NCBI GenBank assembly: GCA_008632985.1
Contig: QPGO01000117.1
Location: 124,001-188,000, forward strand
Source: Psammoneis japonica
Lineage: Eukaryota
Length of the DNA stretch: 64,000 nt
Reading direction: 5' to 3'
The position numbers were made by a program, and so were the translations under genes. Numbering within the stretch: the first letter of the stretch is position 1; each line of letters begins with the position of its first letter. The notes beneath the pieces are model-generated. The model searched no databases, was not told where the DNA came from, and was given only the letters and a program-made list of their open reading frames with translations. Shown piece after piece: positions 13,013 to 63,184 of the stretch.

Positions 13013-13356
13013 GCGTTTCACGTTTCACACGGCTCAATAAACGCCATCGCCGATTGACAGGTTTTGTCAGTGATTTTCGAAATATTTTCGAATTTTCGTT
13101 TTCGTTTTGTTAAAATTTGGATGACGTCATCATGACGTTTCAAGTGATGCACGTCATACATGCAGTCGGACGATTCAAAGATGCTGTATCCAACATGCTG
13201 CATTGGCAAGATCCAATGTTTCAAAAAGATCACAGAAAAAATGCGAATCCGAAAGAGGGAGAAGGGATCAGGGCCACAGGTGCGATGCGGTGGCTGTCGA
13301 CAAAGAACAGCGCAAAAGCTCTCTCCACTCCAGTGGCAGTGAAAAAGCGAAACGCC

Positions 13357-13818
13357 ATGTTTGTTTCCAAATCCATGCACACGCCAATCATTCGGCGATC
13401 TTTTGCTTCTGTTGCGACTGTGGTCAAGGAAAAAGCACCTGGTGCAGGACATCACATCTTGCTTGAAGATGATGGGTCGGGCCAGCCCATTCCGAAACCA
13501 ACTCCACTGGCCAACGTCAACGAAACCTTGCATGCATTCGATGTGATCTGTCCACACATGAACACGTCCATGGAAAAGGGAAATGTCTGTGCAGACATTG
13601 GCCCAGATCCGGAGATTCACTGCTGCGTCCATAATTCACGGTTCAACATGCGAGCCGGTGAGTGTGCTCAATGGGTGACGGGTGCCCTTGGTTTTGAGAA
13701 CCAAGTGGTGGGTGGCTCAGCGCAAAAGGTGGGAGGCAAAAAGCAGAGTGTCAAGGCACACAAGGTGGTGTCCAATGAAGATGGATCCTTGACGATTGAC
13801 GACGACATGACAGCCTGA
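13357..13818 (+). pseudogene. Rieske [2Fe-2S] ferredoxin-like gene, eroded by Tyr->His/Cys changes
   Basis: HAFDVICPHM (CxH) and CCVHNSRFNMRAGEC (CxxH..F...G), VKAHKV. No Tyr where Rieske ferredoxins usually have YA and Y-x-V. Frame still open; start uncertain. Confidence 0.7.
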
Positions 13819-14799
13819 GACAGTGGATGACATGGTCACGAGTGTGATGAGAGAAGTTCAGACGACAGTTTGTCGTTTGTCAGCACAAAAAGTGCGCTGG
13901 CACAAGGCCCTGAGACAGCACTTCACTTTGCATGACTTTGCCATTGAGCAGGTTCGCCCTCCTTGGTGACGATTGAGGACATTGACCTTCTTGTGACAAT
14001 TGAAACTGAGACACTGGGCAGAAACCCACCATCCACACTGAACCCAGATGTTGGGTGAGGCATGCAGCATTTCTCTGCGCAGTGGTGGTGCCGCAAGCAG
14101 GAGCTCCTTCGCTGACTTTAACGTCAACTGCGCGTGAGGTGCGCCAAAACAAAAGCTGTCAACACCGCGCTTTGGCCCATTCTCGCGTTGCAGATGCATC
14201 ACAACATCACATTTCTCATCTTTGCTGCTGCTTCATTGAGGCCTCGGCATTGTCATTTTTGGGAATTTCAACATGCCCCCCCCCCCCCCCAGCTTCCGAC
14301 AAGTTCTGAACGTAAAACATGCATTCCAGCTTCTCAACGCTGTGCCACACTTGATCCTTTTTTAGTCTTGGTGGGGCCTGCAATGCAAGCACAACTGAAT
14401 GTCCTCTCAGACTGTGCCCCTCTGCCACTGCACCGCGAGTCGGCCATGTGGCTCGACGATGACGACAGCCCAGCGAATCTAGCAGCCTCGATTGGTTTCA
14501 AACTGAACAGCGGGGGACCTCACCATGTCAAGGCTGGAGCATTTCCTGAGCTGACATCTCCATGAGACCCGTCTCTTCATTCAAACGTGGGAGGAGGAGC
14601 CTGGCTCAATGATGCGGAATTGACGCCAAATCCTTTTTAAGGGGGCGGCCTGCGAGCACGTACAAGTTGGAGTTCCAGTTGCAAAAAAAAACATTCATTT
14701 CGCATTTCACTCCTCCTGACACGATTCTGATTTCTCTGCATGGCAATCAATGCAGCATTGATGCTTTCAATCAGGATTTCCTGCAGGGGGCACTTCTCC

Positions 14800-15929
14800 A
14801 CATTGAAAAACCTTCAGACAGGACATCTCCAATGTTCTAAAAGAGGACATGAAAGGATCAATGTCATGTGGCAAAATTTTCACAACATCAAATTCCAGGA
14901 TGACATCTGTTCCCTTTTAACGCATCACCAAACTCTGTCAACAGTTCACCGGAAACCTCATTCCCATGAAATCCAATTCATTGCATGGACGACGGCAGAG
15001 ACGCTTGACTTTGTCCAAATGAAACTTGGCACCAATGTCTCCAATTTGGTCATCTGCCACATCCAGGTAAAGCACATTTGCTGCATCAGATTCTGCAAGT
15101 GTTTTGACAATGGCAGCGAGGGTGTCATTGCCAATGCGGCAGAAATGGAGGTGGATGCGCGTCAGTCGAGAAATGATGGGGTGCAGCACCATGCAGCCTT
15201 CAGCACCAGTCCCTGTGTTGACCAAAAGAAGCAGATTGTAACCTTTCAATGAGGGTTTGATGCAATCGCAGCAAATGCAGCAGGGAATCCATCGACCCCA
15301 TGAGAACATTGATGAATGAAATGATCCTCAGCTCTGTCAGCTGTGCCAATGCATTTGACAACAAGACAACGCCACTGTCTCCGATTTCATTCCCATTCAC
15401 AGACAGTGCCTGGAGTTGTCGAAAGTCACCCAAAAGAACTCTCTGAGTCAACGCATGGCAAAAATGCAGTTCAATCCTGTTGTGTCCGGCATTGAGCACC
15501 ACAGAGTCTTGAGAAAATCTTCCAAGCGATTTCATCATCACCATGGCACTTGCAGTTCCCCACCCTGACATGCCACATTGCACGTCACAGGTGTGAGTTC
15601 CTCTGGAAGTGGCCGATGAAGGTGTGGTCACAGAGTTTGCCAACAATTAGAAAGTCTTTGTGTCCATTGGTAAAAGACTTTTCATCTCTTCTGAGAAGTG
15701 AAGTGGAGGTCATTGCATCCTCCGATCATTGAGGTTGCCCAACGTGATTCGGCAAACGTCCAACCGCGGTCATTGTAACCCACTGCATTTGCTTCTGGTG
15801 GTGGGTCGTAATCATCTGAGCAATCAACAGAAAATGAGGTCGGAAGAAGCTCCAGGCTTGGTCGGAACAGGCAGTTGGCCGAGAGTGCTGAGAATTCAAC
15901 CACTTCCGGTTAAAAAATTCAGCAGCCAT
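14800..15929 (-). pseudogene. RNI-like leucine-rich-repeat protein, frameshifted
   Basis: LQALSVNGNEIGDSGVVLLSNAL, LTRIHLHFCRIGNDTLAAIVKTL and VLYLDVADDQIGDIGA fall in different frames. Confidence 0.7.
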
Positions 15930-16657
15930 GTTGTGTCATTGTTTGTTGTGGCAAGGTTGTGAGGTGTTGTGGAGATGTTACAAGGTCAACAGAAGTGCCA
16001 TGCCGGAGGCATGTGAACAGCGGCAAAGTCATTTTTGCCATCATTGAAAAATCTTGACACTAAAAACACTTGTCGAAAATCGGCTTTCGTCAGTCACTAA
16101 AACACACCCAGTTGCAGCGACTGACGAAAGCCTTTTTTCAACATCTTCAGTTGTAAGAGCTGCAGAGCAAGAGCAAAGCATGTGGAAACAAGGTGTCCCA
16201 TGAGTGACTTGTGTGGCATGCAATCCTGGATAAAATTTCGGAACTCCGGATTAAATGCCAAATTCATGACATGACTGATGATTGAACACAAATGTGAAGA
16301 TCAATTAGAAAAAGGCGAACACAACCGTCATTTTTTCTTAAATGAACGCCAAATTTTCAACGACAAACATTCGCTTTCACTCACTCCGACCGATGCAACA
16401 TGCATTTGACCTTGTTCAGCTTGTCGGGAGCTTGGGGTCTGTGAGGCGATCCTGAAAAAAAGTTCGCTGCTGTTCACATGCCTCCGGGTGCATGAAGGCG
16501 GCAGATTCCGGATTCTGGATTTTTGACGAAGACGCCATCTTCGGCATCTTTTTTTTTCATTGACCACTCAGCGTGGGTTGGGGATGGATGTGCAAACCCA
16601 GCAGGGCCAAGGAATCGGAAGAAGCATTTTGGGCACTGCAGAGGACAGAAAACAAAG

Positions 16658-19275
16658 ATGTCAAGAAATGAGCGAAACATGTCCACAAACAAGCAGGGAA
16701 CGGCTTTGGCGACCACAAAGACTCCTGCCAAAATGCTGAGTCCACATGCTTCAGTCAGTTTCAACAATTTGGATGAGGAGGACAGTGACTGGGAGGATGC
16801 CAAAGCGCATCATGTCGGCGACCCCCCCAAAAATGTCTGTTGTGGCCTCCAAGAAGCTGCTAGAAATGCATGGTGCGAAGGCGTTGTGCCCATTTGTTGG
16901 ACAAAACTCTTCCTTGTCGGCCGGGGTGGATCTGGAAAAACAAGTTTGGTGCATGTGCTGCTGGGCAAGCCACACATTGCCACTCACAAGTCAACGCGAG
17001 GGCACGAGCTCACCACAACAAATGCAGTGAAATGGACAGAGGATGAAGCATGCATTCAAAATCTCCTTGAGAATGGTTGGAAGAATTCCATGGATTTGGA
17101 GTGTCGTTTTGAAGCAGCGGGTAAACCTTGGGGTGAGATGGAAAACCTGGCTGGCAAAAATCACGCCGCCACTGCGAGAGCAGCTTCCACACCTCCTCTT
17201 GGGAGAGTTCAATCCCAGAGTCTAAAAGAGCCCCGGCTTTCCTCCCGCATAGACTGTTGGAAATGTGAAGGAAAAAAAGGCATGCGGGAGGGACCCCGGA
17301 ATCCATCGTCTCACTCACCAAACACAACCTGTTCTGTTTTTGACTTGGGAGGGCAAGAAGAGTTTGCGGCCATGCATCAATTGTTTCTTTCTGATTGTTG
17401 CATCTTTCTTCTCGTGTTTAGCCTGTGAAGTCTTGCTGATGAATTGGATCGTAAAAAAGAAATTGATGCGCTTCGCTTTTGGCTGCAGTCCATTCACCTG
17501 CAATCCAAGGGAGCGACCGTTGTCCTCGTTGGCACCCACTTGGCTGACCGAAGCACAAAAGCACTGGCAGAGGTCGATGAGTTCTTGTGGTGCAATCTCA
17601 AGGATGAACTTGGGAAAGTCAACTGTCAGCTCAACAAACCCGCCAAGCTGCCATTTTTTCCTACGGAGAACAACTTGCCTGACCAGAATCGAGCTCAAGG
17701 TCCGCGCAAGGCATTGGATGCCCTTTTGGCCGACGAAGAACGACTTGCACATTTGATGGCTCCAATTCCGGTTCGATGGCTGTGGGCAATGGAACAGCTG
17801 CAAGAGTCGGAACATCCCACTTGGTCTTTGGGCAATGTTGCGGGTGTTGCCCAGGCTGTCAGCATTGAACACAGAGAGGTGGCCACCATGCTCTGCTTTT
17901 TCCACGTGGCTGGCCTCCCCATCATTTGTCTTGACTGCACGGAGGATCTGGCCAAGATGGCAGTGACAAAACTGCAATGGCTTCTTCAGAAACTTTCCAG
18001 AGTGATGTGCAACACGTCTCTTCACACTCACGGGGAAGCGTTTAAAATGCAAGAATTGGGCCTTTCTGATGAGTGCGACAACCTGCGCAATGACGCCATT
18101 GCTTCACAGTCCATTTTGTCTGTGCTCTGGGATTGTGAGGACATCAACAATGTGAACTGCATTGTTCACCTTGTGGAAGAAACGCTCCTTGCTTGTCCAT
18201 CGAAAGAGGAAGGGTCATTCATGGCACCATGTCTCTTGCCAAACGCCCCCACAGACATTCGGGAAACAGCAGCTGAGCAATTTTCCGGGGGGAAATTGTG
18301 CTGGTTGTGGTTCAACTGCTTGCCCTTGGGATTTCAGCAACGTCTGCTTGTCTGATCATCGAAAACTTTCGTGCCTGCGTTGACATGGACTGTGTCTTTG
18401 CCGACTTGATTTGCTTGCATTTTGGAGAGACTCCGGTCTTGATTGAGATGGATGACAAGACACATCAAATCCTTTTCCACTTTCACGAAACGGCCATCAT
18501 GATCTCAAAGGTGGTGGGTGAGCCATCCGAAATGGCTGCATTGGCAGGAAGGGGGTTTCACGAACGCGGTCAAGGCCACATGCAGTTTGAACTCATTCTC
18601 AGTGCCGACGGATCCAAGGACCCGTGTCAGTGTGCTCTCTGCCAAAATGTTGCCACAGCTTCCAAACTTGTCAAAAGCATTGCAAAGGTGGCATGCTTGG
18701 ATCGTCACTTGTTTGATCCATTTTTTTCAGATCGGCACAGTCATTTGTGCGAAAACGTTTGAAGGGCATTTTTGAGCCACACGGGACAGGATGTGTTTGC
18801 CGCCATTTTTGTCAATCTCGTGGCAGAAGAATTGGCCATCAAACATGGAATCAAAGCATTCCTGGATTCGAAAAGCCTGAAGCCTGGCGACCCCTTTGAA
18901 CAAGTCATTCATGACAATGCTCGCAGCTGCAAGGTGTTTCTTTGTGTGCTTTCCGAAACACACTTTTCGAGATGCTGGTGCTTGCGCGAACTTGACGACG
19001 CCCTCCATTCTACAGCTGGGCCGAAGGTTTTGCCCGTTTGTCATGATCAGGTCAAAACACCCGAGGAAGAGCATGAAGCAGTCGAAAAGATGGAGATGGT
19101 GCTCAAGAACAAGCTTCGTTCCATTGACCAGAGCATCCGTGAACGTTGGCGCGGCAATCTTCACAGGCTCAAGTCGATCCAAGGCATTCGCAACCATTCC
19201 ACCCACAAACACAGCATGACTGCCTTTTGCACCACGGTGGTTGAAAAGATTTGTGAAGCTCTGCACTCTGATTGA
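16658..19275 (+). pseudogene. Roc GTPase-COR-TIR (Roco-type) protein
   Basis: G1 KLFLVGRGGSGKTSL, G2 STRG, G3 FDLGGQEEF, G4 VVLVGTHLAD; COR IPVRW..QWL; TIR FLSHTGQD..AFLDSKSLKPGD..VLSETHFSRCWCLREL. In-frame TGA at 17426 and 18760, and a frameshift near 18350. Confidence 0.88.
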
Positions 19276-20877
19276 CATTTTCAGAGACGCCTGCTGCTGC
19301 TCGTTTGTTTGTAGCTGCCTCCATGCTTCATCAAATTGTCAGGCGAACAGGCAGGCACAAGCGATGAACCGTTTGCCGATGCGGTGTGGTGGGACTTGTC
19401 CAGAATTTCCTCAAAAGCGCTCACCAGCAAGGTTGCAGGAGTCACTACAACGGATGCCACAGAAGCAAGAGCGGCGGTTGTGGGACCCCATCAAAATGGA
19501 TTTGAAAACCGTCACGTCTGCAATGGCAGCGCTCCGCCGCCGACGTCGCATCCTCCCGCACCACCACTTTCCAACACAACAAAAAGAGCACAATCATGCC
19601 TGCATGGTGGGTGACGCAGCCCAAGATGGCAAGACACTTTGCAAACTGGAACATTCCCCCCCCAAGTCTCTGAACGACTTGCCACAGTGCAACAAACTTT
19701 TTTCGTGTGTTTCCACATCACGGCTGTGAGTGGAGTGAAGGGGCACAAAAGGCCACGCATTGAACAAGAAGCATCTCAATGAATGGAGATGGCCAACGCG
19801 GGGGGGAGCATTCATGCAGAAGGGGCTCAAGTCAAGTTGATCAGTTCTCGCATGGCTGCAGCAGAAAACAACAAAGAGTGCATCTTCCCAGACTTGGGTT
19901 GGACATCACTGACACACTTGTCACTGTGCCACGGATTGGGCCAGACTTTGACAATCTGCTGTCGCAATGCAACCAAACGACATTGACCCGAGCGCTGCAA
20001 AAACTTTCGCGGAAGCCTCTGCAGCTGCACTGCAAAAGGTGGTGTCAGAATCATTCTCCTCTTCACCTGTCTCCACGAGCCGGCTGTTAGACCAAGTGAT
20101 TGCATCGGGGTGTCACATTGACGGGATCTTTGTCATGGATCGGGTCATTGACAAATGCCCGATGGAAGCTTGTTCCCAGGCCCCATCTCAGTGGAGATCA
20201 CAAACTTGAGTGCAATTCGCAGGCATGCACTTGTTGGCTGCCAAAGCAAAGATCCAGCCAGTCAGCGGGGATGTCGGCTTGGAGATTCACAGTCCTGGCT
20301 TCCCTTCTCTCAACCTTGTCAATTTGTCTTGTGGACCTGCCATCAGCATTTCCAATTGCTTTGCATGGCAAAGAATGGCACAACCGCAGCGAGGTTTGCA
20401 TTGACACACAGACCAAACATTGCAGTGATGTTCTTGACGCTTTTTTTACAACCGCACGCAAGTGAAAGAATGCATGACATTGCCACTTGCGCAATTCAAC
20501 GCATGCTAAAAGCCTTTCTTGACAGATTGTGCTGGAGCGCTCTTCGCTTGTTCATTTGTGTGAACTCCGAATTGCCCACTCATCAGAGTGCACGAAATGT
20601 TAAAAATGTGTAGATTTGCATGATGACAATGTGTCAAAACATTGCAAAAAATTGTTGTCATGCAGTTAAAGGCCAACCTCTGGTCACAAGTTTGTTGTGC
20701 GAACATTGCAACAACTTGTCAAGAATTGTGCATGCCATTTTTCACCATGTCCACATCACTGTTTCTGCCTCCACCTTGTTGCCATGTGCCAATGCATGAT
20801 TGCATTGCCACACAATCCTTGGTTTGTCAATTTTCACAAACATTGTTTTAAACAAGAAAAGCATTTCATTGGTTGAG

Positions 20878-22181
20878 TCAATCCCTTGTTACGTCTGCAG
20901 TGCAATGACCAAGTGCCATGTTGACTGTGCACACATTTTCTTGCTGCAACTCTCTTAAACTGAGCCAACGATCATCATCGGACTCGTCTCCATCGGACTC
21001 GTCTCCTCCATTGTCCGTTTTGCCTTTTGCGCCTTCCTCCTGCTCATCGTCGTTGCTGTTGTCGTCCCTGCTGCTCTCCACCATCAGGCTGTTCATTGCC
21101 TTCACCTTCTCCGCATCACCGGTCAGTGCTTTCTTCATCTTCTTTTTTGCTTCTCCGGACTTCTCGCACTCGCTTTTCTTGATCTCCACGTGCCACTTTT
21201 CAAACTCCTTGCCCTCCTTGGAGTCTCTGTCTTTCGTCACCTCTTTGCACAAATCGTTGAACCGATTGATTCCGTCATCTCCCCAAGACACTCGTTGTTT
21301 CTTTGGCTTCGTGCACCGAGGGGCAGGCCTTGTTTCTTCGGGCTCCATTTCCTCACCCAATTCTTCCACCGCCTCCTCCTTGTTCCTGCATGCCCACACC
21401 TGCCAACGATTCTCCACAGCCAATGGCGCCAAAGCTTCATCACCGACCGTAAACAACTGTGAGACCTGTGCATTCCCAGTTTTGACGGTGCTGCTCCATG
21501 CCTGCTTTTGCTTGGTTTGAGGTAGGATGTGATCACAGAACCACTTGCACGCCTGCTTGTTCCTTCGTTTACCGCCGGTGACAGTGTCCAGGCCAAACGG
21601 ATCCCATGTCGGCACAAACGGGGTGTCATTCTCTTCATTCTTGTCACGGCTTGACTTTTTCCTGCCTTGCTTTTTCTTCCTGACTGCCGCCTTGAGTTTC
21701 TTTTCTTTTTCCTTTCCCTCTTCCTCAGTGGCGACGCCTGTGCAGACAAAGCACCACCCTCATCTTCTTGTGAGATGCGCGCAACTCTCGAATCACACAC
21801 ATTGGTCACTTGACTCACGGGCCATTGCCTCCGCCCCGATGGCCGAACACACCGTGTTTCTGCGATTGTCAATTTGCCTTTTTGCCGCCTTTTTTGCCCA
21901 TTCCTCCCAAGATCCTGACCAATTTGAAGTGTCCACATTGCCACCAGCAATCTGTTTCTTGACAAACATTGAGACGCTCCCATTGCTTGCCAATTCTGAC
22001 AGACTGAGAAACTTCACCTGTGGAAAGAGATCATTTCTAGCCACCTTCTCCACTTCTGATTTCAATGCACCATGCTCTGCCTGCACACCTGTTCTCTTCA
22101 ACACTGCCTGAAGTCTCGGACTCATTGGCTTGACAGTCTCATTTTTCTTTCTCTTCTTTGCTGGTGGCACTGGAGACAACA
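20878..22181 (-). pseudogene. Hypothetical, probably transposon-associated gene (likely intron near 21745-21817)
   Basis: ORFs 21793-22293 and 20878-21615 read as a coherent protein (LFPQVKF..W..RR; TVGDEALAPLAVENRW..SWGDDGINRFNDL..DR; acidic tail). Tyr-free. Confidence 0.45.
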
Positions 22182-22832
22182 TCTTGATCTTTTCACGGCA
22201 ACAAGGAGAGGAGTGGCACTGTTTGACAGTGCAACCGTCGTTTGGGTCGTGTTGAGACAGCCAGCCACTCTGTTTTTCTCTATGACATTGCACAAATTGT
22301 TGTCAGCAACATTGAAATTTGAAAATTTGTTCACATGCAACAACAAGTGGTCCAACTCACTTTTTGATGTGGTTGTCATTGCATTTCAATGGAGATGATG
22401 TCCTGCATTTTGACAGTCAACAAAAAACACAATGTTCATTGTGAATGCCAGATAAAAAATCAAAATGCAGACACGCCACACCTGTGAGAATCATCCAAAT
22501 CTGGAAGATGATGCAATGTTTGCCAATTTCCCGCCATTTTTTGCGTGTTGTTCTTCTTTTCCCTTCTCATCCACAAGACAAGGACAATGAGTGTGAGTCT
22601 TGATGAAGGCCCTGTCAACATTGTCTGATTGACAATGGACGGAAACCCTCTTCTCTGTCCCGGTTGTGGCAAAAGTTTTTTGCGAACAGCCTGCCATTGG
22701 AGACACTCACCAACGTGTCACTCAGTTGCCCAAGATTTGCACACCCAAGATCCAATCCCAGATCAAAGCAACATTCCTTTGTTTCTAAAATGGGATGCGC
22801 ACATCAATCTGTCATTCACTCACAGTGATTTC

Positions 22833-31200: not shown

Positions 31201-32611
31201 GCTGCCAGAGACCTGACACATGAGATTCTTGAAATTTTTCCAACAGTTGATGCTCACTGCCCATTTGCTGCAGCATGGACCAAGTCGAGTCAGGCTTCCC
31301 TAGCCTCACCAGCTCTCACCTCATCCAGTCAAGAAAAGCTCTGTTCAACTGCATGTTGCAGGGGTTTAAGATGTTGTGCTTGAATCTCTAATCACCTTTC
31401 TTCTCACCAGAAACATTGATCGCTGACCCACGATGTGAGGGAGAGGATCAAACATCACCAAGTTTTGACAGCCTTGAAGAATCACACCTTTTCATGCTCC
31501 TGCAGCACTCTCTCTGCCAGAGAGAAGGTCCAGTTCACACAATTGTTGAAACTTTGCGTTTGCAGTCATGACACCCAAAGAACCTCTGAGAACAAACATT
31601 CATGTTTCCGGCGTGCACTTGCCACAAATCATGCCATCCCTCGAAACAGCAAAGCAGAGATTGACTGCAATTTTAGAAGAAAAGACACTCATTTGGTGAC
31701 TCTTTTTGACATGAATGAAACAATTCTCATGGGTGATGAAGCAGGGGGGTGACACATGAGAAATTGTTTCAACAAGATCGTCGCCAAGTCCACCTTCTTC
31801 ACTCAATGTCATGAGGGCAACTTGAAAACCTTTGAGTTGACTCATTGGCGGGGCAGGACACCCACTGGCAAAAAGTGCAGTGGCACGCCACTGCCACTCT
31901 GTGCCAGATGGCACTGGCCTCCCAGGTGTTGTCCCCGTTGTTGAGATTCCTTCAAGAAGCATTTTCCGAGCAAATGACGTGCCATGACAGTGCCGTTTGC
32001 AAGCCTCTCTGTGAGAAAATGGAAAGATGCCTGACCTTGGCAGAACTGTCAAGTCCACCCAATGTGTTGTCCCACATGATTCCCGCCATTTTTCATGTGC
32101 TTCAAGAACTGACTCGATGCGAGCAACGGTGCTTCAGACCTTTGAGACAGATTTGTTGCTTGATCGCAACCCAGGAGAGTCTTGGAGAAGGACCATCTCT
32201 GCTGTGGACACTGGAAACAGACAAAGAATGACACAAACAGCAACAGCAAAGATGACGTGCTCTGTCAGCTGTGGACCATGAATGACAAGAAGGAAGACCG
32301 AACCTTGATGGCGAGCGGAGATGCAGAAATTGTTGAGCTTTGAGCTGCTGGAATCAAGAACAATTTTTGGCACTCAAGAAGATGACTGCGACTTTTGGAG
32401 TCAACACAAGTGCAAACCATGGACAGCAAAATTTTCTAGTTACATGACATTTGCATGTGTCGAGCAACAGTTGTAAGACGTCAAACCGCGTGCATTGCTC
32501 ATGTGGCCATTCTCCAACCCCTCACACTTAGCACCGTGCTTTCACCACGTGATTTTGATTTACAACACGGTAAAGTGTTGACGTAGATTTCTACGCACTG
32601 TTTTGTATTTA

Positions 32612-32917
32612 CTGCAAATTGCAAGACAATTGCGCGATTCACGTGCCCGAAGGTGGAATGTCATTGCCCGAAGCAACATTCTCCCTTCGCGCAGATGTCA
32701 TTTCTACGTATGATGTGGTGTCAAAATTTTCATTTTGGTCGTCTAAATCGTCCCAGTCATTTCATCAAATGACCTTGTGGCACTCTCCACGTGATCTACG
32801 CAAATCGGAGCTTCGGGCTGGCTGGCACATTTTCTGCAGGCTCTACGTGCGCGAAGCTCGAATTTCAACAATCACCCTTCGGGCACGTGAATCGCGCAAT
32901 TGTCTTGCAATTCGTAG
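32612..32917. mobile_element. ~306-bp MITE-like element with a probable TA target duplication
   Basis: Perfect 36-bp inverted repeat (32617-32652 / 32877-32912) extending to ctgca / cgtag. Flanks are TA (32610-11) and CA (32918-19). Confidence 0.75.
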
Positions 32918-33132
32918 CATGTGCGCCACATGCTGTGGTTTTTTTCCAGTTTTGGGTTTGGCCTTTTTCTGAAAACTGAAAGCTGAAAGGGTTTGTCCAT
33001 CACCATCCCCGACACTGTGAACACCGGAAAACCCGACCAAAACAGAGACAACTTCGACTGACTCGCATGATGACGACAGCCGAGATGGCCAATCGAGCAT
33101 TGTTCTGCCGCACATTTTAATCGGGACTGACA

Positions 33133-35185
33133 ATGATGAATCAGGCAGAGCTGGTGCTTGTGGAGGAATTCGACAGGAGAGCTGACGGCGGACGCCTCTT
33201 TTCTCCCGTTGATGCCAGAACGCCTGGAACGAGTTTGACAAATGCCGAGGTCACCGAGCGAGAAAATTGGATCACAGAGAAGGAAACACTTTACAATGTT
33301 CATCTGCCCGGATTGCAGCATATCGTCACTTCGCAGGAGGGCCTGCTGTCCATGCGAGTTCTGCCCCCGGTGCTCGCCACCGAAGGAGCCGCCAACCGCA
33401 GCAAAACAAGCGACAAACGGGCAAAGAGAGTGCATCCAAACGCCATTTGCCATTGGACTGAATTTGAGGGTGGAGCAAACGCGTTTGAAGGCAGTGGCGA
33501 AAAAGATCTGCCTGTTGTCCAGAACCCAATGTTGGCTTCCCTTGCAAGCACGGGACCTTGTCGCGAAGAAGAGGCAGAAGCGTTCCATCTCTGGGAAAAA
33601 GTCCTTTGCCCTTTGAATGAAGCGAATCTCACAAGCTGCCAAAACCACGTAAGGGGTAAAATTATCAACGGACTTCCTGATGGCATCATGTTTACACGCA
33701 GCAGTGAAGATGTCGTGAAAGCATGTGTTGAATTCAAGACTGCTCAGAATCTCTTACTCCCGCACACTGTTGAGGATCTGATTGGTCAATGCAGAGAGGC
33801 AGTTGATGCCAAACAATGGAGTAACAAGCGACCTCTCTTGTGGTCAAGAGTCTCTCATCCTGTTGGTCAATTGGCCGGCTACATGGTGGACAACAGAGTT
33901 TCATGTGGTGTTCTTTCATGCGGCACAAGGACCCACTTTCTTTTACTTGACCGAGATAACTTGAAGATTGCACATGCTTGGTTCATCGGCCAAGCAAATT
34001 ATCTCCGCGCCTGGGCCTGTTTTTACCAAGTGGCGGAGTCGAGGCCACAACTCTCCACAAATGAGACACCGGCGAATTGGTTCGAAAGTACACCATTCCC
34101 GTCTCCGGAGGAGGTCAAGGATTCTGTCCCGAACGTCTCTTCGCCAAGCACGGATGAAGAAGATTATGGACTTGTCGGGAAAGCTGAAACGAAGAAAGGA
34201 TGCAAGACGAAGAAAAGTTGGCAAAGTCAGCCTAGGACGCGCAAGAAGAGCAAGCTCAGTGACGCGATGAATGACAACAAGGTTGCAGAAGCCGCAATGC
34301 ACCCATTCACGCCTCAAGATGCCAAGTTCGATTCAGACGGTGTCGAATTCAATCTGACATCTCTCCTTCCATTTGTCGATCTATCACTCCTGAAGCACAA
34401 GTCTGTCCTGGGATGTGGCCGAAATGGCGCCACATTTCGTGCGACCTGGAACGATCGTCAAGTCGCTGTGAAACAGTTTGATCTCTGGAAGAATGCTGAC
34501 GGACTCCAGAGTGAATCTGAAGCTTGTTGTTTTCTCAGAAAGGACTGGGGTCGCTCAGTTCCTTTATTTTGGAGCCAGTCATGGTCAGGAAACGTGGTTT
34601 ACTTAGGCATGCAACTTGGGTGCCCTACATCCCTGCTTGTTTTTCACGAGCTCTAATTTGCACAGAAGCCACATGCTGGTTTCTGTGCATTTACGTAGAT
34701 TTTGTGCCAATCGCATCGTAGAGGGGTGCTGTTCGCCGGCCCTGACGAGCTCTTTCTCAGACATGAAATACTTTTCACGACGGCCGGCACATGACTGCCG
34801 GCTCGGTGGACACGTTTCGAGTGCGTTTTCACATAGATCCTACTGCAGATGCAGGCACTCAGATTTAATTCGGTACAAATCTACGCAGGATTTTGCGCAG
34901 GGTGCACACGAACCACCAGGTGGTTCGTGTGCACCCAAAAATGCACACGAGCCACCAGGTGGTTCGTGTGCACAAGCAGGGATGTCAGAGAGTTCCATGA
35001 CGGAGAATCAACACGCGTCATGTCAAAGCACACTCCGAGTTCTGCAGCGGAAGTGTGGCTTCCACCATGAGGATTTGTCTGACAGAAACTGCACTGCTGT
35101 GATGGGGGAGGATGGCGAGGAGCATGTGGTCATGGTTGATTTGGAAAACTGGGAAAGTGGAGTGAAGTTGTGTTCAAAAAACTGA
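33133..35185 (+). pseudogene. Crinkler-effector-like PD-(D/E)xK nuclease plus protein kinase, interrupted by a MITE
   Basis: GLPDGIMF..CVEFKT..GQLAGYMVDN..GVLS; kinase LGCGRNGATF, VAVKQF, then after the MITE GFHHEDLSDRN and VMVDLE. Removing 34631-34985 restores the frame. Confidence 0.82.
34631..34981 (+). mobile_element. 351-bp MITE, CCCTGC..GCAGGG termini, inferred ATAT target site (copy 1)
   Basis: TIR ccctgcttgt/acaagcaggg, flanks acat/atgt, internal palindromes gtgcacacga..tcgtgtgcac. Homologous to 40502-40853. Confidence 0.88.
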
Positions 35186-36927
35186 TTCGTCGCAGGATTC
35201 CCGGGACATCATTTTGCATGCATGCACTTTCCCATTTTCTTTGCATCAGATCAAGATCTGACAATTCACAGATCAAATTGTCTCTGAATTTTTTTCTTGC
35301 GATGGAGTCGTTGCGGGCAGTGCTTTTTCCTCGAGGCTCCATCTGAACTCCAAGGGCCACGAGTCAACCTAGATCCACTCTCCAGCTGGGATCCATGGCA
35401 CCAGTGAGACGTGCCTTGCAGATCTTGGCTGAACGAAATCAAGGACACACCCAAGTCCACTTCCTGAAAGGATGCGTTTTTTGAAAGATGGGCAAAATCA
35501 CAGATGGGTGTGAATTGGCAACTGCTGTGCACCGAAATGATGTCAAAAGGACCCGATGTCCATCAGGTGATGATCGCAGACATGCAAAGCAGTGGAGTGA
35601 AGTGGCAGCAATGACTGGTGCAGTTTTTGACATGCACGTGAAGCCTCCAAATCCTCTCGTCTCCATGCTTTCGTAGACAAAATGATGATTGGTTTCCCCT
35701 TCCATCTACCTTGTGACACCGGCGGTGTCTTTCTTGCACTCGTTGAGACACTTTCTAGCTTCTTTGATGAAACACTCCTTTTCCTTTGCAAGCTTTTCTT
35801 TTCTGTCCTTTTCAATCGTAGAAATCGCCTTCTTTGCAGCCTCGAGTTCCTTGCGCTTGTCAGCAATTGGTTTGCGTTTTTCCTCAAAAGCCTTTCAAGC
35901 TCCTGGCAAAGATCGTAGCAAGTCCTTGTGCAACAGAACAACTTGTTGGCAGCACTGAGACATTTGTGTTTCTTTGCCAACTCTTTCAAGCAGGTGTCTG
36001 ACAGAGGCACGAGTGAGTGTGGCTGAACATGTCAATTGTGCCACAGCCAAAGCAAGTGCTGGCATCTTGGGTGGCTCTGTCTGTTTTTCTTGTTCCTTGT
36101 CATTTGCAAATGAGGTGCTGGTGATTTGCCCACCTCTGCTGACAATTGTGTGAGTTGGACCTTTCTGATTGACTTTGTTGTTGGTGACTTGATGTGATCT
36201 GTGTTGTTTGACTGGCACAAACATGCCCCAAGAAGACAACATTCTTGACACTGCACTTGATGAACAAATCTTCCACAAATTGCCCTGGGCTTGATGAGAT
36301 AAATGTCTTGGTGATGATTGTGGCATGTGTTGTGTGCAGGTGTGTGCATTGTGACAAAAAGAGCCATGGAGTTAGACTCTGTGATCTGCTGATTCCAACT
36401 TGAGCACAAGCCATTGGTGTTGGTTTGACCCAGGATTGGCACAATGTTGTGGGTGACAACCCTTGAAGGTGAAGGAGTGGAAGGAGTTTCTGTGCAATCA
36501 CAGTCAAAAGAACAGGGAACATCCTCAAGGCAAAGTTAGAGAGGCAGGAGTTTTCTGGATTGACAAACTTGCACGATTTCATTTCCAGACCTTTTTTTGT
36601 GCTTAGAGCATGAAAAGCCTGTTTTCGCATTGACAAGGCAAGTGCAAAACACAACACATGGGATGTGTGCAAAAGTCAATTACAATGGGGGCCATCAGGG
36701 AAATTGTTGAACGGCTCCAACAAGAATTTGTCATCCACATTCTCATCTCAACATTGTGGTTCCCTGCAGCAGTCTGCGTGGGCAACTCTGAAAAGGCCAG
36801 GAGAAGAACTCGCCCATTTCTTCAAACCAATTGTCCCATCCATGTGGACCTGACATTGGGTTTGCAGTGTCACCTGCAAGTGTGACCATGCTGATTTCCT
36901 CATGTGACAGGATTTGAACAAGAATGA

Positions 36928-38085
36928 CTCACTCTTGCTCTTCTCCGTCATTCAAGCGTTGATGATGTCAGGTGGACACGGTGAGCAGAACTCTGGCCCA
37001 GACCTGGTGCAACACCTCACTGCTGTCTACATGGCAGATGAGTCTCCATGCAGAGACCATCACAGGTGCCCCTGTGAACAATGGGGATGTGTGTTCCAGG
37101 GTCAGGAACAGCATTTGGTCTGGCCAGGTGGAGTGCCTGGTCTCATGCCTGTGGTGGCATGCCCGGATGTTCAGACACCCAGATGGCTGAGACACGCAGT
37201 TGTTGTTGACTCAAACCCAAGCCCACTTTGGAATTTGCACCAGAATGTGCAATTGTTGCCAACAGATTTCCATCTCCCAACCAAGGAATCGAGTGATCTG
37301 TTGGCATCTGTGCTCTGCTGATTCACCACTGTCACCATTCACTGTTTTCTCATTCATTGTGAAGGTTGACTGCCAAAATGCAACTCTTCTTTGATTTCTG
37401 TCACTCCTCATCAACCTGACACTGTGAATGTCATTCTTCCATTTCTCTCTCAAGTGGCTTCTGGCTTTGCTGTCAAACGGACCCCAGAATCAACTCCAGT
37501 CACCACTTGTGCACTTGTGTCCTTGCAGTGTTCTTGTCACTTGATGAGAGCTCATTGCACCAACAAGGGTCATTGAGATTGTCAATCTGACAGAATTCAC
37601 ACAAGAGCACCTCACTCTTGCTCTTCTCCATCATTCGAGTGTTGGTGGCGTCAGGTGGACACAGCAAGTGGAGCTCCAGCCCAGACCCAGCACAACACCT
37701 TGCTGCTGTCTGCATGGCAGATGAGCCTCCGTGCAGAGACCATTGCAGGTGCCCCCATGAACAATGGGGACATGTGTTCCAGGGTCAGGAACAGTTTTCA
37801 GTCTGGCCAGGTGGAGGTGCCTGGTCTTGTGCCTGTGGTGGCACACCCGGATGTTCAGACACCCAGACGGCTGAGACACGCGGTTGGTGTTGACTCGAAT
37901 CCAAGCCCACTTTGGAATTTGCGCCAGAATGTGCCATTGTTGCTGATGGATTTCCACTCCCTGACCAAGGAATGGAGTGATCTGTTGGTGTTTGCACTGC
38001 CAATTTGTCACTGTTGCCATTCACCATTTTCTTGTTCATCGTGAAGGTTGACCGCTGAAATCCAACTCTTCTTTGATTTCTGTCA
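36928..38085 (+). repeat. Diverged direct duplication of a ~470-bp unit (36928-37400 and 37610-38085)
   Basis: Both start ctcactcttgctcttctcc, share cagagaccat..caggtgcccc and cccggatgttcagacacccaga, and end caactcttctttgatttctgtca. Confidence 0.85.
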
Positions 38086-39167
38086 TCTCATGTGTTGGTT
38101 GGAAATGGCAGCCTCTGTGTTGTCTTGGCGGTCAACAAGAAAAGAAACAGGGCAAATTGCATCATTTGTCACAAATCTTTGCAACTGCCACTGTCAAAAT
38201 TTTGTGAGGGATTCTGTTGTGTTTGTTTTGCAGATTTTGTTGCAAAAGAGGCCATTTCAGTTGAATTTGTGAGCACCGCATGCTCAACGAATGATCATGC
38301 ATGTTGCTGATTTTTTTGTTTTGCGGGCAGTTGTGAGCCCAGAAGTCTTGTGTGTTCATGTGCTGTCACATGCTTGCATTGTGGCCCTGCACATGAGTGC
38401 AGTGCCGGCATTGTTCAAAAAATTCAGGAAGCTGACATGCCTTTTTTCAAAGACATTTGACGCCAATCGCATCAGACGCTTGACGCGCAATTTTGCGCCC
38501 CGCATCTGGGCCACAAAATTCTTATCGCAAATTTTTGTGACCCACATGTGGGCCACAAATTTGCCATGATTCTTAAAATGAAGCTTGTCTCATTGCTGTT
38601 TTTGAGCGGGAACAATCAATGTTGTAAGAGAGCGATGTGACATCCTGTCATTTGTTGACAAAAGTGTTGTTTTGCACCGCTTCTATTTTTGTGTCGAGCA
38701 TCGAGCACTGAGCACTGTTGACGTGGACAGTGATCATGAGCAGAACATGCGTGATGACGTGTGCAAGCATTGTTTTGTTGTCGCTGAATGTCGTTCTTCT
38801 GTCGTTGTGCCAACTGCAGACTGCTGATGCACTCCAGCTCTGGGTGGGACCTCGCACTGCTGAACTGTGACATCAACAGTTTTTTGGATTGTGCCGCATG
38901 TCGCGCACGCAGATGGCTGCGTGTGAAATTCTACGAAATTGTTTCACACTTCCCATTTTGCGAAGCCAAAGGCTTTCTATTTTCAACATTTGTGACAATG
39001 AAAATGCACTGGGTGTGTTCTCCAATGTCTGCAGAATGTGCCCATGCAAGCTGTTGTTGATGTGCTTTGAGTGTGAAGGAGGAGACACGTTCGTAAAATT
39101 GCCTCTTTTTCTGTTGGCAATCATTCACATTTTCATTGCTTGACAAATGTGCTGTGGAGTTCGATGT

Positions 39168-39235
39168 GGAATTCTGTGGGCCCAATGTCACACGGAGTCC
39201 CACCTGGGATTGGAACCCATCTGCTTTTTTCATCA
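39168..39235. repeat. Dispersed repeat with an inverted copy at ~48855-48920
   Basis: gaattctgtgggcccaatgtcac..ggagtccc.cctggg..tggaac occurs at both sites in opposite orientation. Confidence 0.7.
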
Positions 39236-40501
39236 TTTGTTTTCTGCAGCTGCCGTCATGACGTCTTTTTGGGCTGCATTTGACAGCAAATCCAAAGCGT
39301 CCATTCTGAGTGTGTCATTTGTCCCTGCCGACAATGGTGTCACCGCGAGTCCATTTCTCTTCTGTGTGGACACCTTGGCCATCATCAACATTTTGAGCTG
39401 CCAGACTGCATTCATCGTGAAATTCACGATTTGCACCCCCAAACCCGTGAAGAGCCGCACACGGGTTTTAAATCCAATGGGGAGGACACAGACTGGGCTC
39501 TCGTCATGCAGCTGTTTTTTTAATTTAGCCAAACCAATCAACTGCTGGCCTGCTGTGCATGTCTTTGCAATGGCTGCATTTTTTCAATCCACCAAAACAG
39601 ACGCAACATCTCTGCGGAAAGTGGTTTTCCAATGGTTGTTCCTTGGCTGTCGACATTGTTCTTCAACTGTTCCAATGGCCCCATTTTGCTGTGTGCTAAA
39701 ACAGATGCAACACAGCTGCAAAAATTTCTTTCAAATGGTTGTTCCTTTGGTGACTGATCTTTTGCCTCCACTGCCTCCAGTTGCAGCAACGGCGGCAGCA
39801 GAATTTCTTTCACTCTCTCCCGATTCCAACTTGTCCCCTCCTGCAGTGCTTCCCTCGCCACGATGCCAAGCCTCTCCTTGGTCTGCGCCTGTCCTCTTTT
39901 GAACCATTTGATCTTGAAAAAATTGCAGTTTGCTTTTCTAGGACACTCCAGCATCTCCCTGTGAACTTCCATGCCATTGATGCTTTCCTCGGCGGCACAG
40001 ACCGGCTGGTGTTGAGGATGCAAGCACATCATGTCAGAAACAATCAACTTTTGTTTCACAAAGCTGAGTTACACTCGAGCTCTCTTGGCCACTGGCGGCT
40101 GCACAGGAAGACTTGGAGGGGGGGAAGCACTGGAACAGAGGGTGCTTCGGGAGCACTCGGTGATGCCGGGTTTCACTGCATGTCTTGAGCAGGCGAAAAA
40201 GACATGTCTGTTCCCGCTCCAAGCAATTCTGACACATTTGGCATTTCCCTGACAATGTTGTCAGGCGTCTGAGGTTGCTGGAGTGAATGTCCTTCCCCGT
40301 TGGGGCCAGCCGCAGGGTCCGCTGTGGTGGAGGGAGAAATCGGCAAAAAATTGCGCGAAAACGCAAACACATTTGAGAGGCCACCAGAACAACCAGCGGA
40401 ACTTTTTTGACAGCTGAAGTGTGGATTCCTGTGTTTTCGGGCATGGAGAATTCGACTGTGGGGTCTGTTCATCGATTGTCTGTGCCGGCACTGTGTCACA
40501 T

Positions 40502-40853
40502 CCCTGCTCATGCACACGAACCACCTGGTGGTCCGTGTGCATTTTTGGGTGCACACGAACCACCTGGTGTTTCGTGTGCACCCTGCGCAAAATGCTGCGT
40601 AGATTTGTACCGAATTAAATCTGAGTGCCTACATCTGCAGTAGGATCTACGTGAAAACGCACTCGAAACAGTGTCCACCGAGCCGGCAGTCATGTGCCGG
40701 ACGTCGTGAAAAGTATTTTATGTCTGAGAAAGAGTTCGTCAGGGCCGGCGAACAACACCCCTCTACGATGCGACTGGTATAAAATGTACGTAAATGCACA
40801 GGAACCAGCATGTGGTTCGTGTGCAAATTAGAGCTCGTGAAAAATAAGCAGGG
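40502..40853 (-). mobile_element. 352-bp MITE (copy 2, inverted)
   Basis: Reverse-complement match to 34631-34981. Ends ccctgctcat/ataagcaggg, flanks acat/atat. Confidence 0.88.
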
Positions 40854-40981
40854 ATATCTTTGAGGATTTGAAAAAATTTGCGGCAAATTCAAATTTTATC
40901 ATAAAATATTCAGACTTTTTAAATTACTTCTATCTTCAATCGCTTTTCATCCACAGAGAATGTGTATGGATACCGGTACAA

Positions 40982-43470: not shown

Positions 43471-43748
43471 GGTCAATCGGCAGGTCGTCGCAGGGCGAAG
43501 TTCAAAGTGCAAAAGATGATGCGAGGGTTGTCGGCTGTGCGCGTCGCGCACGCTCGTCCACAAAGGTCGGACGGCGGACGGGCGGCGCGCGGATGTGTCG
43601 TTTTGATGACGTCATACTATGAGTGGAAAACATACGTACAAACCGCGTAGAAATGACAAAATCTTTGCGCGACTGTTGCGTTGCTGGTGATGCGGTGCCT
43701 GCCGCAAAAGCACAAAAGCAACAGCAAACAGCTTGTTGAAGGGCGGCA

Positions 43749-47502: not shown

Positions 47503-47544
47503 GCAACGAGAACTGCGGTCAGCAAGTAGAACATAGATAAGAAG

Positions 47545-58103: not shown

Positions 58104-58227
58104 GCAACGAGAACTGTGGTCAGCAAGTAGAATATAGATAAGAAGCTAAGGAGACAGGTGTAGAGAAAAGTTGCATCTTAAAATTTGTGCCGAGACTCGA
58201 CAGGCAAACAAGGCGAACGCCACCTCG

Positions 58228-63120: not shown

Positions 63121-63184
63121 GCGCGTTCAATGCCAGGCATCGGCAGGAATTTAACGTCACCGTCAAGTCTCCTTACCGCTGGAT

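What the first reader, a model, noticed from the sequence alone, without database searches (positions are those of the whole stretch)
13100..40600. Domain-wide TpA -> TpG/CpA hypermutation: candidate 'reverse-RIP' genome-defence or DNA-modification system
Seen: TpA is nearly absent over most of ~27 kb here and in 2.2-4.9, 47.9-54.1 and 59.2-64 kb, while flanking genes are normal, with transitions within a few hundred bp. Seven real-looking ORFs (16523, 17444, 18772, 20878, 22833, 24343, 29259; ~2,150 codons) contain no Tyr. Cys/His stand at positions that are normally Tyr: TIR SETHFSRCWC, Copia FCDWVWC, kinase LGCGRNG, Rieske HAF/KAHKV. CpG is largely kept in 13-35 kb, so 5mC deamination does not explain it. 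Established: fungal RIP and 5mC decay are C->T, and RIP creates TpA. Inference: a region-targeted, strand-symmetric T:A->C:G process acting on TE-rich chromatin, via adenine deamination or thymine oxidation (the sequence cannot tell which base is hit). I do not know of a description of this.
Basis: partly seen in the sequence, partly recalled or inferred. Interest (0 to 1): 0.95.

Follow-up and report, generated by a model that had tools for sequence, protein, structure and literature searches.

The report
TpA-erasing hypermutation of silent DNA
In this unidentified protist, silent repeat-rich DNA between working genes has had nearly every T-A step rewritten to T-G or C-A, a genome-editing signature so far reported only once, in an unrelated alga.

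Summary
In 38,225 bp of blocks (2.2-4.9, 13.2-25.5, 28.3-40.5, 48.0-54.1, 59.2-64 kb) TpA o/e is 0.10, against 0.51 in the 25,775 bp of flanking genes. TpG and CpA rise by the amount that TpA plus CpG fall. Edges are sharp, within 100-250 bp, and lie next to gene ends.

Contigs of a separate run reproduce the TpA-poor sequence, so a base-calling artefact is unlikely. Domain relics lack Tyr and carry extra Cys and His. Repeat pairs differ mainly at TA/CG-derived sites. The process is strand-symmetric and independent from site to site. It prefers 5'-TAT > TAC > TAG > TAA and runs about 3-5 times faster than CpG decay in the same blocks. It spares a 95%-identical gene duplicate yet hits single-copy DNA, so it is not RIP-like.

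It is not undescribed. A 2026 bioRxiv preprint shows TpA->TpG/CpA hypermutation in Bigelowiella natans. This window is not B. natans, which makes it a second, much more saturated case. The enzyme is unknown: adenine deamination is favoured, and thymine oxidation is the main rival.

The parts
2200..4900 (.). TpA-depleted block A (TA o/e 0.065, CG o/e 0.21)
   Evidence: no Pfam family in its ORFs
13200..20300 (.). Single-copy TpA-depleted block (TA o/e 0.081, CG 0.61) holding gene relics
   Evidence: X1 contig depth 57-60, the same as the flanking genes, apart from two bins (15.7-17.0 kb) at 197-226. 36 TA in 7.1 kb.
13114..13815 (+). Rieske-domain relic, Tyr-free
   Evidence: PF00355 E=5e-8; Y=0
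16496..19272 (+). Roc-COR-TIR gene relic, broken by in-frame TGA codons and a frame change; Tyr-free
   Evidence: Roc 1.5e-10; COR-A 2.4e-6 (27.9 bits, below its 35.3 cut-off); TIR 1e-16. In-frame stops are all TGA. 326 homologues; Cys stands where homologues have Tyr.
20301..25500 (.). High-copy repeat, TpA-depleted (TA o/e 0.080)
   Evidence: X1 summed word depth 3,600-23,000 against about 58 for single copy
25501..28299 (-). Spared island with normal TpA: low-copy, Tyr-rich gene(s) of unknown family
   Evidence: TA 5-12 per 250 bp; ORF 27141-27782 has 16 Tyr; depth 92-190 in three bins and 778 in the last (27.7-28.3 kb)
28300..40473 (.). Mosaic of TpA-depleted sub-blocks of different decay (TA o/e 0.056-0.19; CG 0.31-0.85). 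28.3-31 kb is high-copy.
32401..32949 (.). Small island with near-normal TpA, containing a 45-bp inverted repeat (32617-32661 / 32868-32912); probably a young insertion
34629..35009 (+). 382-bp MITE-like element, copy inside the domain; it has lost 5 TA relative to its twin
40474..40855 (-). Twin MITE-like copy at the domain edge (92% identical); no TA lost relative to the other copy
36902..38085 (+). Two tandem ~500-bp copies (83.5% identical) inside a saturated block; 25 TG<->CA double differences
47980..54100 (.). Most saturated block (TA o/e 0.030, CG 0.17), lying between the two GH38 gene copies
59200..64000 (.). Partly depleted block (TA o/e 0.23, CG 0.79) with 232-bp direct repeats at 59763-59994 and 62719-62950
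43713..47594 (+). Internal control: GH38 alpha-mannosidase copy 1 with normal TpA
   Evidence: 95.3% identical to 54288-58195; TA 141 against 140; 0 TG<->CA doubles in 159 mismatches
54288..58195 (+). Internal control: GH38 alpha-mannosidase copy 2 with normal TpA

Best explanation
What it is. The blocks are old, silent repeat and pseudogene DNA that fills the spaces between active genes. Their CpG decay suggests they are 5mC-methylated. A DNA-level process directed at this chromatin converts TpA to TpG or CpA.

How it behaves. It acts on either strand with equal chance and independently at each site. It has an extended preference 5'-TAT > TAC > TAG > TAA. It is about 3-5 times faster than CpG decay in the same DNA, and it is still acting or acted recently. 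This is the same mutational signature as the TpA hypermutation seen directly in Bigelowiella natans.

Inferred enzyme step. Adenine in 5'-TpA is deaminated to hypoxanthine by a nucleic-acid adenosine deaminase of the TadA/ADAT type, recruited to silent chromatin. Replication then fixes A->G, which reads as T->C on the other strand.

Shown here: the signature, its polarity, its symmetry, its context, its borders, and its independence of copy number.

Inferred: targeting by chromatin state, the defence role, and the enzyme.

Odds: about 0.85 for a real, targeted TpA->TpG/CpA process; about 0.45 that adenine deamination is the chemistry.
For: Budget. TA+CG lose 5.60 points and TG+CA gain 5.45, with nothing else shifting comparably.

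Polarity.
- Pfam-backed relics (1,022 aa) have Tyr 0% against 2.96% in normal genes, Cys 3.72 against 1.94 and His 4.50 against 2.75. TAT/TAC codons are 0 and TGT/TGC/CAC are up.
- Where 150 Roc-COR homologues have Tyr, the window has Cys in 15.0% of cases against 1.5% in a homologue-versus-homologue control, and Tyr in 0% against 14%.
- The tandem pair 36902/37585 has 25 TG<->CA double differences (50 of 84 mismatches). The unmutated GH38 duplicate has 0 in 159.
- The direct repeats 59763/62719 differ at 15 positions, all transitions, 6 of them TA<->TG/CA.
- The MITE copy inside the domain lost 5 TA; its twin at the edge lost 0.

Reality. X1 contigs reproduce 13.2-20.6 kb, with 23 differences on the three long contigs (2+6+15).

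Ongoing activity. The differences listed in 13.2-20.6 kb fall on 4 of 34 TA sites and 18 of 277 CG sites, but on only 4 of about 7,000 other positions. There are none in 11.0-13.2 kb.

Symmetry. The TG share is 0.48-0.52 per block, with no autocorrelation and var(z)=1.04.

Context. Survival of RTAY is 1.9%, of mixed contexts 13-14%, and of YTAR 43%. The partly decayed block shows a similar order, T lowest then C, though A and G swap places.

Targeting. Spacers between active genes keep TA o/e 0.60. The 3.9-kb 95% duplicate is spared while single-copy DNA is hit.

Precedent. In B. natans mutation-accumulation lines, 230 of 231 mutations in the hypermutable regions are A->G or T->C, all at TpA. 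That paper names an ADAT2 homologue as candidate (Results and Discussion read).
Against: - No deaminase gene lies in the window and no genome was available, so the enzyme step has no direct support.
- The 3'-T preference is not that of ADARs (3' G, recalled). It only partly fits TadA's UAC context (recalled).
- Silence and methylation of the blocks are inferred, not measured.
- The library type of run X1 is not on record and X1 may be the assembly's own sample, so the check is not fully independent.
- Tyr polarity from distant homologues (25-34% identity) rests on a few columns. At Tyr columns His is not enriched (10.9% against 9.4%).
- Copy number was measured only for 11-31 kb.
- No viral hallmark was found, unlike the B. 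natans targets.
Confidence: 0.45

Rival explanations
1. Same targeted process, different chemistry. Thymine in TpA is hydroxylated by a TET/JBP-type dioxygenase as a silencing mark on repeats (5hmU, possibly oxidised further). The modified base mispairs with G or is repaired wrongly, giving T->C, which reads as A->G on the other strand.
For: In the dinoflagellate Amphidinium carterae, 5hmU is enriched in transposable elements and helps silence them. Older work found 5hmU preferentially in TA and TC dinucleotides (PMC11572971; passages seen). The best named relative of this window's FTO-like gene is a dinoflagellate protein (Polarella, 42%), so an alveolate-like host is possible. The palindromic TpA target fits either base.
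Against: There is no clear sign of TpC loss: TC o/e is 1.06 against 1.16 and CC is unchanged. No TET/JBP domain is in the window. The mutagenicity of 5hmU/5fU towards T->C is recalled, not checked. Dinoflagellate-type gene arrays are not seen here, since genes lie on both strands.
Confidence: 0.3
2. TpA is hypermutable everywhere that is untranscribed, for example through a TpA-specific lesion. Active genes look normal only because of transcription-coupled repair and selection. On this view there is no targeting system.
For: Blocks end at gene borders. Run X2, which covers only some stretches, lies only on normal-TpA parts, but its kind is unknown.
Against: 3,157 bp of non-coding spacer between active genes keep TA o/e 0.60 and CG 1.14. 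Selection could not hold synonymous and intronic TA against a rate that exceeds methyl-CpG decay. In B. natans the rate jump is confined to two regions and to some lines.
Confidence: 0.08
3. RNA editing (ADAR-like A-to-I at UA) of retroelement transcripts, copied back into DNA by reverse transcription.
For: A 5' U preference is typical of A-to-I editing (stated in the B. natans paper's Discussion).
Against: That route would give A->G on the sense strand only. Here TG and CA are equal with no runs. A single-copy host pseudogene block is as depleted as the repeats. Copies keep mutating in place.
Confidence: 0.03
4. Artefact: systematic miscalling of a modified base at TpA during long-read assembly, or a polishing error.
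For: The pattern is region-specific and could follow a regional DNA modification.
Against: Contigs built from exact 31-letter words at depth about 58 in run X1 reproduce the sequence; I infer that noisy long reads would not give such depth. The sites are polymorphic, not uniformly converted. CpG decay, Tyr loss with matching Cys/His gain, and TG<->CA doubles between copies are evolutionary signatures.
Confidence: 0.03
5. Foreign (viral) DNA that was TpA-poor when it arrived, or selection against TpA.
For: In B. natans the targets are integrated giant-virus and virophage DNA.
Against: Eukaryote-type domain relics lack Tyr altogether. Decay differs from block to block and correlates with CpG decay. 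No viral relative or family was found.
Confidence: 0.03

Closest known systems
TpA->TpG/CpA hypermutation of integrated NCLDV and virophage DNA in Bigelowiella natans (Mettrop et al., bioRxiv 10.64898/2026.01.13.699255, 2026; outline, Results and Discussion read)
   Same: Only TpA is hit, giving TpG or CpA according to strand. It is regional, with a huge rate contrast to the rest of the genome. It leaves TpA-poor, CpA+TpG-rich clusters enriched in transposon-type and unannotated genes. The enzyme is unknown.
   Different: Different organism: the best protein matches are only 50-58% identical, none to B. natans, and the genes are intron-poor. Depletion here is near saturation (o/e 0.03-0.1 over blocks of 2.7-12.3 kb, against 0.45 for their NCLDV region and a cluster cut-off of 0.43). 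The targets here are high-copy repeats plus a single-copy host pseudogene block, with no viral hallmark. CpG decay runs alongside, and there is an extended TAT>TAC>TAG>TAA preference; the text I read reports neither. I have no de novo mutation data.
Repeat-induced point mutation (RIP) of fungi
   Same: Transition hypermutation that ruins repeats and leaves dinucleotide-skewed, gene-poor blocks with sharp borders. It can leak into neighbouring single-copy DNA (recalled).
   Different: The chemistry is opposite: RIP is C->T at CpA and creates TpA (established knowledge). Duplication is not the trigger here: a 3.9-kb 95% duplicate is spared and single-copy DNA is saturated.
5mC deamination decay of methylated transposons
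   Same: CpG->TpG/CpA loss is present in every block (CG o/e 0.17-0.85 against 1.03) and co-varies with TpA loss.
   Different: It cannot remove TpA. TpA is lost 3-5 times faster than CpG in the unsaturated blocks.
5hmU marking of transposable elements in dinoflagellates (PMC11572971; passages seen)
   Same: A base modification aimed at repeats. Older data, cited there, place it preferentially at TA.
   Different: It is described as an epigenetic mark, not a mutator. The TC preference has no clear counterpart here. The modification is untested in this organism.

Membership tests
B. natans-type TpA hypermutation | Substitutions confined to TpA, yielding TpG or CpA | tested here: met
   TA falls from 3.52% to 0.64% and the TG+CA gain equals the TA+CG loss. 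Repeat pairs agree. Tyr->Cys/His in domain relics.
B. natans-type TpA hypermutation | Both strands hit (A->G and T->C in equal measure) | tested here: met
   TG share 0.48-0.52 per block, no autocorrelation
B. natans-type TpA hypermutation | Confined to particular regions, with a rate far above the rest of the genome | tested here: met
   Edges within 100-250 bp. Differences from X1 are listed across 13.2-20.6 kb, against 0 in 11.0-13.2 kb.
B. natans-type TpA hypermutation | Targets are integrated viral or other foreign sequences | tested here: inconclusive
   20.3-25.7 and 28.3-31 kb are high-copy repeats. No Pfam, viral-contig or Atlas match. A single-copy host-type pseudogene block is also hit.
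B. natans-type TpA hypermutation | De novo mutations seen in mutation-accumulation lines, and only in some lines | not testable with these tools
   No genome and no lines were available. The only proxy is the set of differences between the window and X1 contigs.
Fungal RIP | C->T at CpA, raising TpA | tested here: not met
   TpA is removed and CpA rises
Fungal RIP | Triggered by sequence duplication | tested here: not met
   GH38 duplicate (3.9 kb, 95.3%): TA 141 against 140, 71 of 159 mismatches are transversions. The single-copy block 13.2-20.3 kb is saturated.
ADAR-type RNA editing fixed through retrotransposition | A->G on the transcribed strand only, in tracts | tested here: not met
   No strand bias and no runs
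5mC deamination | Loss limited to CpG | tested here: not met
   CpG loss is present, but TpA loss is larger and faster
TET/JBP 5hmU marking of repeats | 5hmU present at TA (and TC) in the blocks, and a TET/JBP enzyme in the genome | not testable with these tools
   No modification data and no genome. No such domain in the window. The TC signal is weak.

The most novel reading that the evidence does not exclude
A chromatin-guided DNA base-editing defence that erases TpA (hot motif 5'-TAT) is not a peculiarity of one chlorarachniophyte. On this reading it is an old, widespread protist system that works alongside cytosine methylation, keeps acting on whatever lies in silent domains (repeats, young MITEs and trapped host genes alike), and outpaces methyl-CpG decay. 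Its enzyme, either a DNA adenine deaminase or a thymine oxidase, would be a natural A:T->G:C editor of double-stranded DNA.
Probability: 0.35. Interest if true: 0.9.

Novelty: new member of a known kind. Interest (0 to 1): 0.66.

Why it matters
Targeted A:T->G:C hypermutation of nuclear DNA was unknown until a 2026 preprint on one alga. A second case in a clearly different organism would suggest a general eukaryotic genome-defence principle that mirrors RIP and APOBEC editing.

This case is also saturated. It gives a sequence motif (TAT>TAC>TAG>TAA), a link to CpG-decaying chromatin, and natural reporters in the form of a MITE pair and repeat pairs.

The enzyme would be of direct interest as a natural adenine or thymine base editor.

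There are practical consequences too. In such genomes TE and pseudogene annotation fails (Tyr-free proteins, lost TAA/TAG stops, spurious long ORFs), and dinucleotide-based scans can map silent chromatin.

Tried and rejected
- Whole genome: none is held, so genome-wide profiles and TE family consensus sequences could not be made.
- tRNA and Rfam scans: nothing found.
- Pfam: 61 ORFs of at least 150 aa from across the window, and 112 of the 180 remaining ORFs of at least 90 aa (those in and next to the depleted blocks up to 51.4 kb). The repeats gave no family. The only hit in the second batch is a sub-threshold LRR at 15203-15646.
- TIR against solved structures: aligns to bacterial-type TIRs, with no informative Tyr column.
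- Taxonomy: GH38, Oxa1 and FTO searches give best identities of 54%, 50% and 58% to unnamed environmental proteins. Named hits are diatoms for GH38, and a dinoflagellate, oomycete, brown algae and diatoms for FTO. I could not place the organism beyond 'SAR-like protist, not B. natans'. The GH38 search could not have seen proteins longer than 951 aa. A features search of the Atlas with the FTO ORF gave no taxonomic help.
- Relatives' DNA: 4 metagenome loci with a 45-47% FTO relative (GC 65%, up to 18 kb) show no depleted block. This is one gene-dense lineage and is uninformative.
- Viral origin: 2 ORFs of the high-copy repeat were scanned against viral contigs. One found nothing and the other a 19-residue chance-level match. 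The Atlas did not recognise ORF 24346-25524 (recognition 1792).
- Three-way alignment of the 3076 / 59763 / 62719 repeat: too short and gappy to polarise.
- Expression: no RNA holder is listed. Run X2 (kind unknown) lies only on normal-TpA parts. I do not use this as evidence.
- The contig joint 25505->28283, which would make the spared island an insertion, rests on 21-23 letters on one side. I rejected it as too weak.
- Earlier notes of this scan: nothing on this genome or on look-alike stretches.
- Literature: eight searches found only the B. natans preprint for TpA->TpG/CpA hypermutation, and nothing for diatoms.

Full report
OBSERVATION

Per-kb dinucleotide profiles show TpA o/e of 0.00-0.23 in 2-5, 13-25.5, 28-40, 48-54 and 59-64 kb. 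Elsewhere it is 0.38-0.78. TpG and CpA reach 1.4-2.2 in the same places.

Pooled, the blocks hold 246 TA in 38,225 bp (0.64%, o/e 0.10). The normal parts hold 908 TA in 25,775 bp (3.52%, o/e 0.51). The binomial p is about 1e-305.

- CG falls from 5.86% to 3.14%.
- TG+CA rise from 14.63% to 20.08%.
- The loss (5.60 points) equals the gain (5.45 points), and no other dinucleotide moves comparably.

Borders are sharp, within 100-250 bp, and sit within a few hundred bases of the ends of normal genes. Non-coding spacers between normal genes (3,157 bp) keep TA o/e 0.60 and CG 1.14. So it is not simply 'non-coding DNA' that is affected.

IS THE SEQUENCE REAL?

One public run of the same coded organism (X1) holds 87% of the sampled words of 11-21 kb. 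Its contigs, at word depth about 58, cover 11.0-20.6 kb. There are no differences in the normal 11.0-13.2 kb. The three long contigs over 13.2-20.6 kb show 23 differences (2+6+15) in the TpA-poor part.

The TpA-poor sequence is therefore reproduced from exact 31-mers at high depth. I infer that this is not what error-prone long reads give. The library type is not on record, and X1 may be the assembly's own sample, so this is strong support but not independent proof.

POLARITY: TpA WAS THERE AND WAS LOST

(a) Pfam finds Rieske, Roc, COR-A and TIR relics in the single-copy block. COR-A scores 27.9 bits, below its gathering cut-off of 35.3. Their 1,022 residues contain no Tyr, against 2.96% in ten normal ORFs. 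Cys rises from 1.94% to 3.72% and His from 2.75% to 4.50%. TAT/TAC codons are 0 while TGT, TGC and CAC roughly double.

(b) The Roc-COR ORF has 326 homologues. Pooled over the best 150, where a homologue has Tyr the window has Cys in 15.0% of cases, against 1.5% in a homologue-versus-homologue control. It has Tyr in 0%, against 14%. His is not enriched (10.9% against 9.4%). One column where homologues mostly have Arg holds Cys here, consistent with CGY->TGY. The signal rests on a few columns, such as 167, 244 and 297.

(c) Repeat pairs give the clearest contrast.

- The normal-TpA GH38 duplicate has 159 mismatches, 71 of them transversions, and no TG<->CA double difference.
- The tandem pair 36902/37585 has 84 mismatches, of which 50 form 25 TG<->CA doubles and only 8 are transversions. 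This is expected if both copies resolved ancestral TA or CG sites independently.
- The direct repeats 59763/62719 differ at 15 positions, all transitions. Six are TA<->TG/CA, three are CG<->TG/CA and four lie in two doubles.

(d) A 382-bp MITE-like element with terminal inverted repeats occurs twice at 92% identity. The copy inside the domain (34629-35009) has TG or CA at 5 sites where the edge copy (40474-40855) has TA. The reverse never occurs.

(e) Long ORFs are more frequent than stop-codon loss alone explains. There are 5 and 3 ORFs of at least 290 aa, against 0.14 and 0.06 in Markov-1 simulations. So coding relics are present.

PROPERTIES OF THE PROCESS

Strand symmetry. The TG share is 0.48-0.52 in each block. 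There is no autocorrelation between neighbouring TG/CA sites, and 500-bp bins show no overdispersion (var z = 1.04). Events therefore hit single sites on either strand independently. That excludes RNA editing followed by reverse transcription, and it excludes strand-processive tracts.

Context. Surviving TA depends on the base 3' of the adenine on each strand.

- Survival in the strong blocks is T 0.04, C 0.10, G 0.18, A 0.29.
- RTAY survival is 1.9%, mixed contexts 13-14%, YTAR 43%.
- An additive two-strand model fits the 16 contexts.
- The partly decayed 59.2-64 kb block shows a similar order (T 0.18, C 0.43, A 0.58, G 0.62), with A and G swapped.

Rate. Assume the blocks started like the normal DNA. 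Then ln(TA left)/ln(CG left) is 3.0-5.0 in the six unsaturated blocks and 1.3-1.8 in the three near saturation. TpA thus decays several times faster than CpG in the same DNA.

Ongoing or recent activity. Of the 40 differences between window and reads that were listed (154 more were not shown), 23 are CG<->TG/CA and 6 are TA<->TG/CA. In the single-copy block this amounts to 4 of 34 TA sites and 18 of 277 CG sites, against 4 of about 7,000 other positions.

Targets. Copy number was measured for 11-31 kb only.

- 20.3-25.7 and 28.3-31 kb are high-copy, with summed depth 3,600-23,000 against about 58 for single copy.
- 13.2-20.3 kb is single-copy, apart from two bins at 15.7-17.0 kb (depth 197-226), and is equally depleted.
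- A 3.9-kb gene duplicate at 95.3% identity, 10 kb apart, is untouched (TA 141 against 140).

Duplication is therefore neither necessary nor sufficient. The 2.8-kb island at 25.5-28.3 kb, with a Tyr-rich gene of unknown family, is spared between two high-copy blocks.

WHAT IS KNOWN

A full-text search found bioRxiv 10.64898/2026.01.13.699255. I read its outline, Results and Discussion and searched passages.

- In B. natans mutation-accumulation lines, 231 of 302 nuclear mutations fall in one integrated giant-virus region and one virophage region.
- The rate there is about 6e-7 per site per generation, and 230 of the 231 are A->G or T->C.
- All of those fall on TpA.
- The genome also has 124 clusters of TpA-poor, CpA+TpG-rich windows.
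- An ADAT2 homologue is proposed as the enzyme.

Seven further searches found no other description. The text I read mentions no other species, no CpG link and no wider motif.

WHICH ORGANISM?

No genome is held. The FTO-CCCH-Torus ORF has a best match of 58% identity and the Oxa1-like ORF 50%. Both best matches are unnamed environmental proteins, and no B. natans protein appears. The GH38 exon matches at up to 54%, with diatoms as the only named hits. Exons are long: 903, 596 and 543 codons without a stop. I recall B. natans genes as intron-rich; that point comes from no call.

I conclude that this is a poorly sampled, SAR-like protist and not B. natans. I could not place it further.

MECHANISM

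Shown: a TpA-specific, strand-symmetric, site-independent transition process with a TAY preference. It is confined to blocks that also lose CpG and end at active genes, and it is independent of copy number.

Inferred: targeting through a silent, methylated chromatin state, and a defence role.

The chemistry is open. I favour adenine deamination at about 0.45. A 5'-U/T is intrinsic to tRNA-type adenosine deaminase substrates (recalled), and this is the proposal for B. natans.

Thymine oxidation stands at about 0.30. It is backed by the dinoflagellate finding that 5hmU marks and silences transposable elements, and by older data placing it at TA and TC (PMC11572971). No clear TpC effect is seen here.

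Artefact, RNA editing, native viral composition and an untargeted process each stand at 0.08 or less, for the reasons given under rival explanations.

VERDICT

The finding is best filed as a second, far more saturated instance of the newly reported TpA hypermutation, in a different protist. It adds new details: the motif, the coupling to CpG decay, a single-copy pseudogene among the targets, a spared duplicate, and decay of a young MITE.

Noticed in passing
window 7098-9806 (-): Uninterrupted 903-codon ORF that fuses an FTO-type dioxygenase (catalytic and C-terminal domains) to CCCH zinc fingers and a Torus domain. The best relative is 58% identical with the same architecture, from a metagenome. 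A second 2OG-Fe(II) oxygenase lies next to it at 11894-12964 (-). Both sit just outside the depleted domain, and nothing links them to it.
   Followed up: partly
window 43713-47979 and 54288-59228: Tandem duplication of a GH38 alpha-mannosidase plus HlyIII cassette (95.3% identity over 3.9 kb). Copy 1 keeps only a 5' fragment of HlyIII, and its N-terminal GH38 ORF is split in two where copy 2 has one ORF, so copy 1 may be decaying.
   Followed up: partly
window 16496-19272 (+): Roc-COR-TIR architecture (an NLR-like immune-type gene) surviving as a Tyr-free relic. The best homologue is a 1,621-aa protein with two Roc-COR units.
   Followed up: partly
window 34629-35009 and 40474-40855: 382-bp MITE-like element with terminal inverted repeats and an internal GC-rich palindrome. 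Two copies lie in opposite orientation. A second small inverted-repeat element sits at 32617-32912.
   Followed up: partly
window 26128-27782 (-): Tyr-rich ORFs with repeated S-x-D-G-type motifs (beta-propeller-like by eye) and no Pfam family. They lie in the spared island between two high-copy repeats.
   Followed up: no
window 11001-31000 (run X2): A small run from the same sample covers only the normal-TpA stretches (11-13 kb and 25.7-28.2 kb), at uneven depth. It could be RNA, but its kind is not on record.
   Followed up: no
depleted blocks, whole window: TAA and TAG drop to 2.5 and 1.7 per 1,000 trinucleotides (from 7.9 and 7.0) while TGA rises to 23.9 (from 19.3). Gene finders will therefore call spurious long ORFs on both strands here.
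   Followed up: yes
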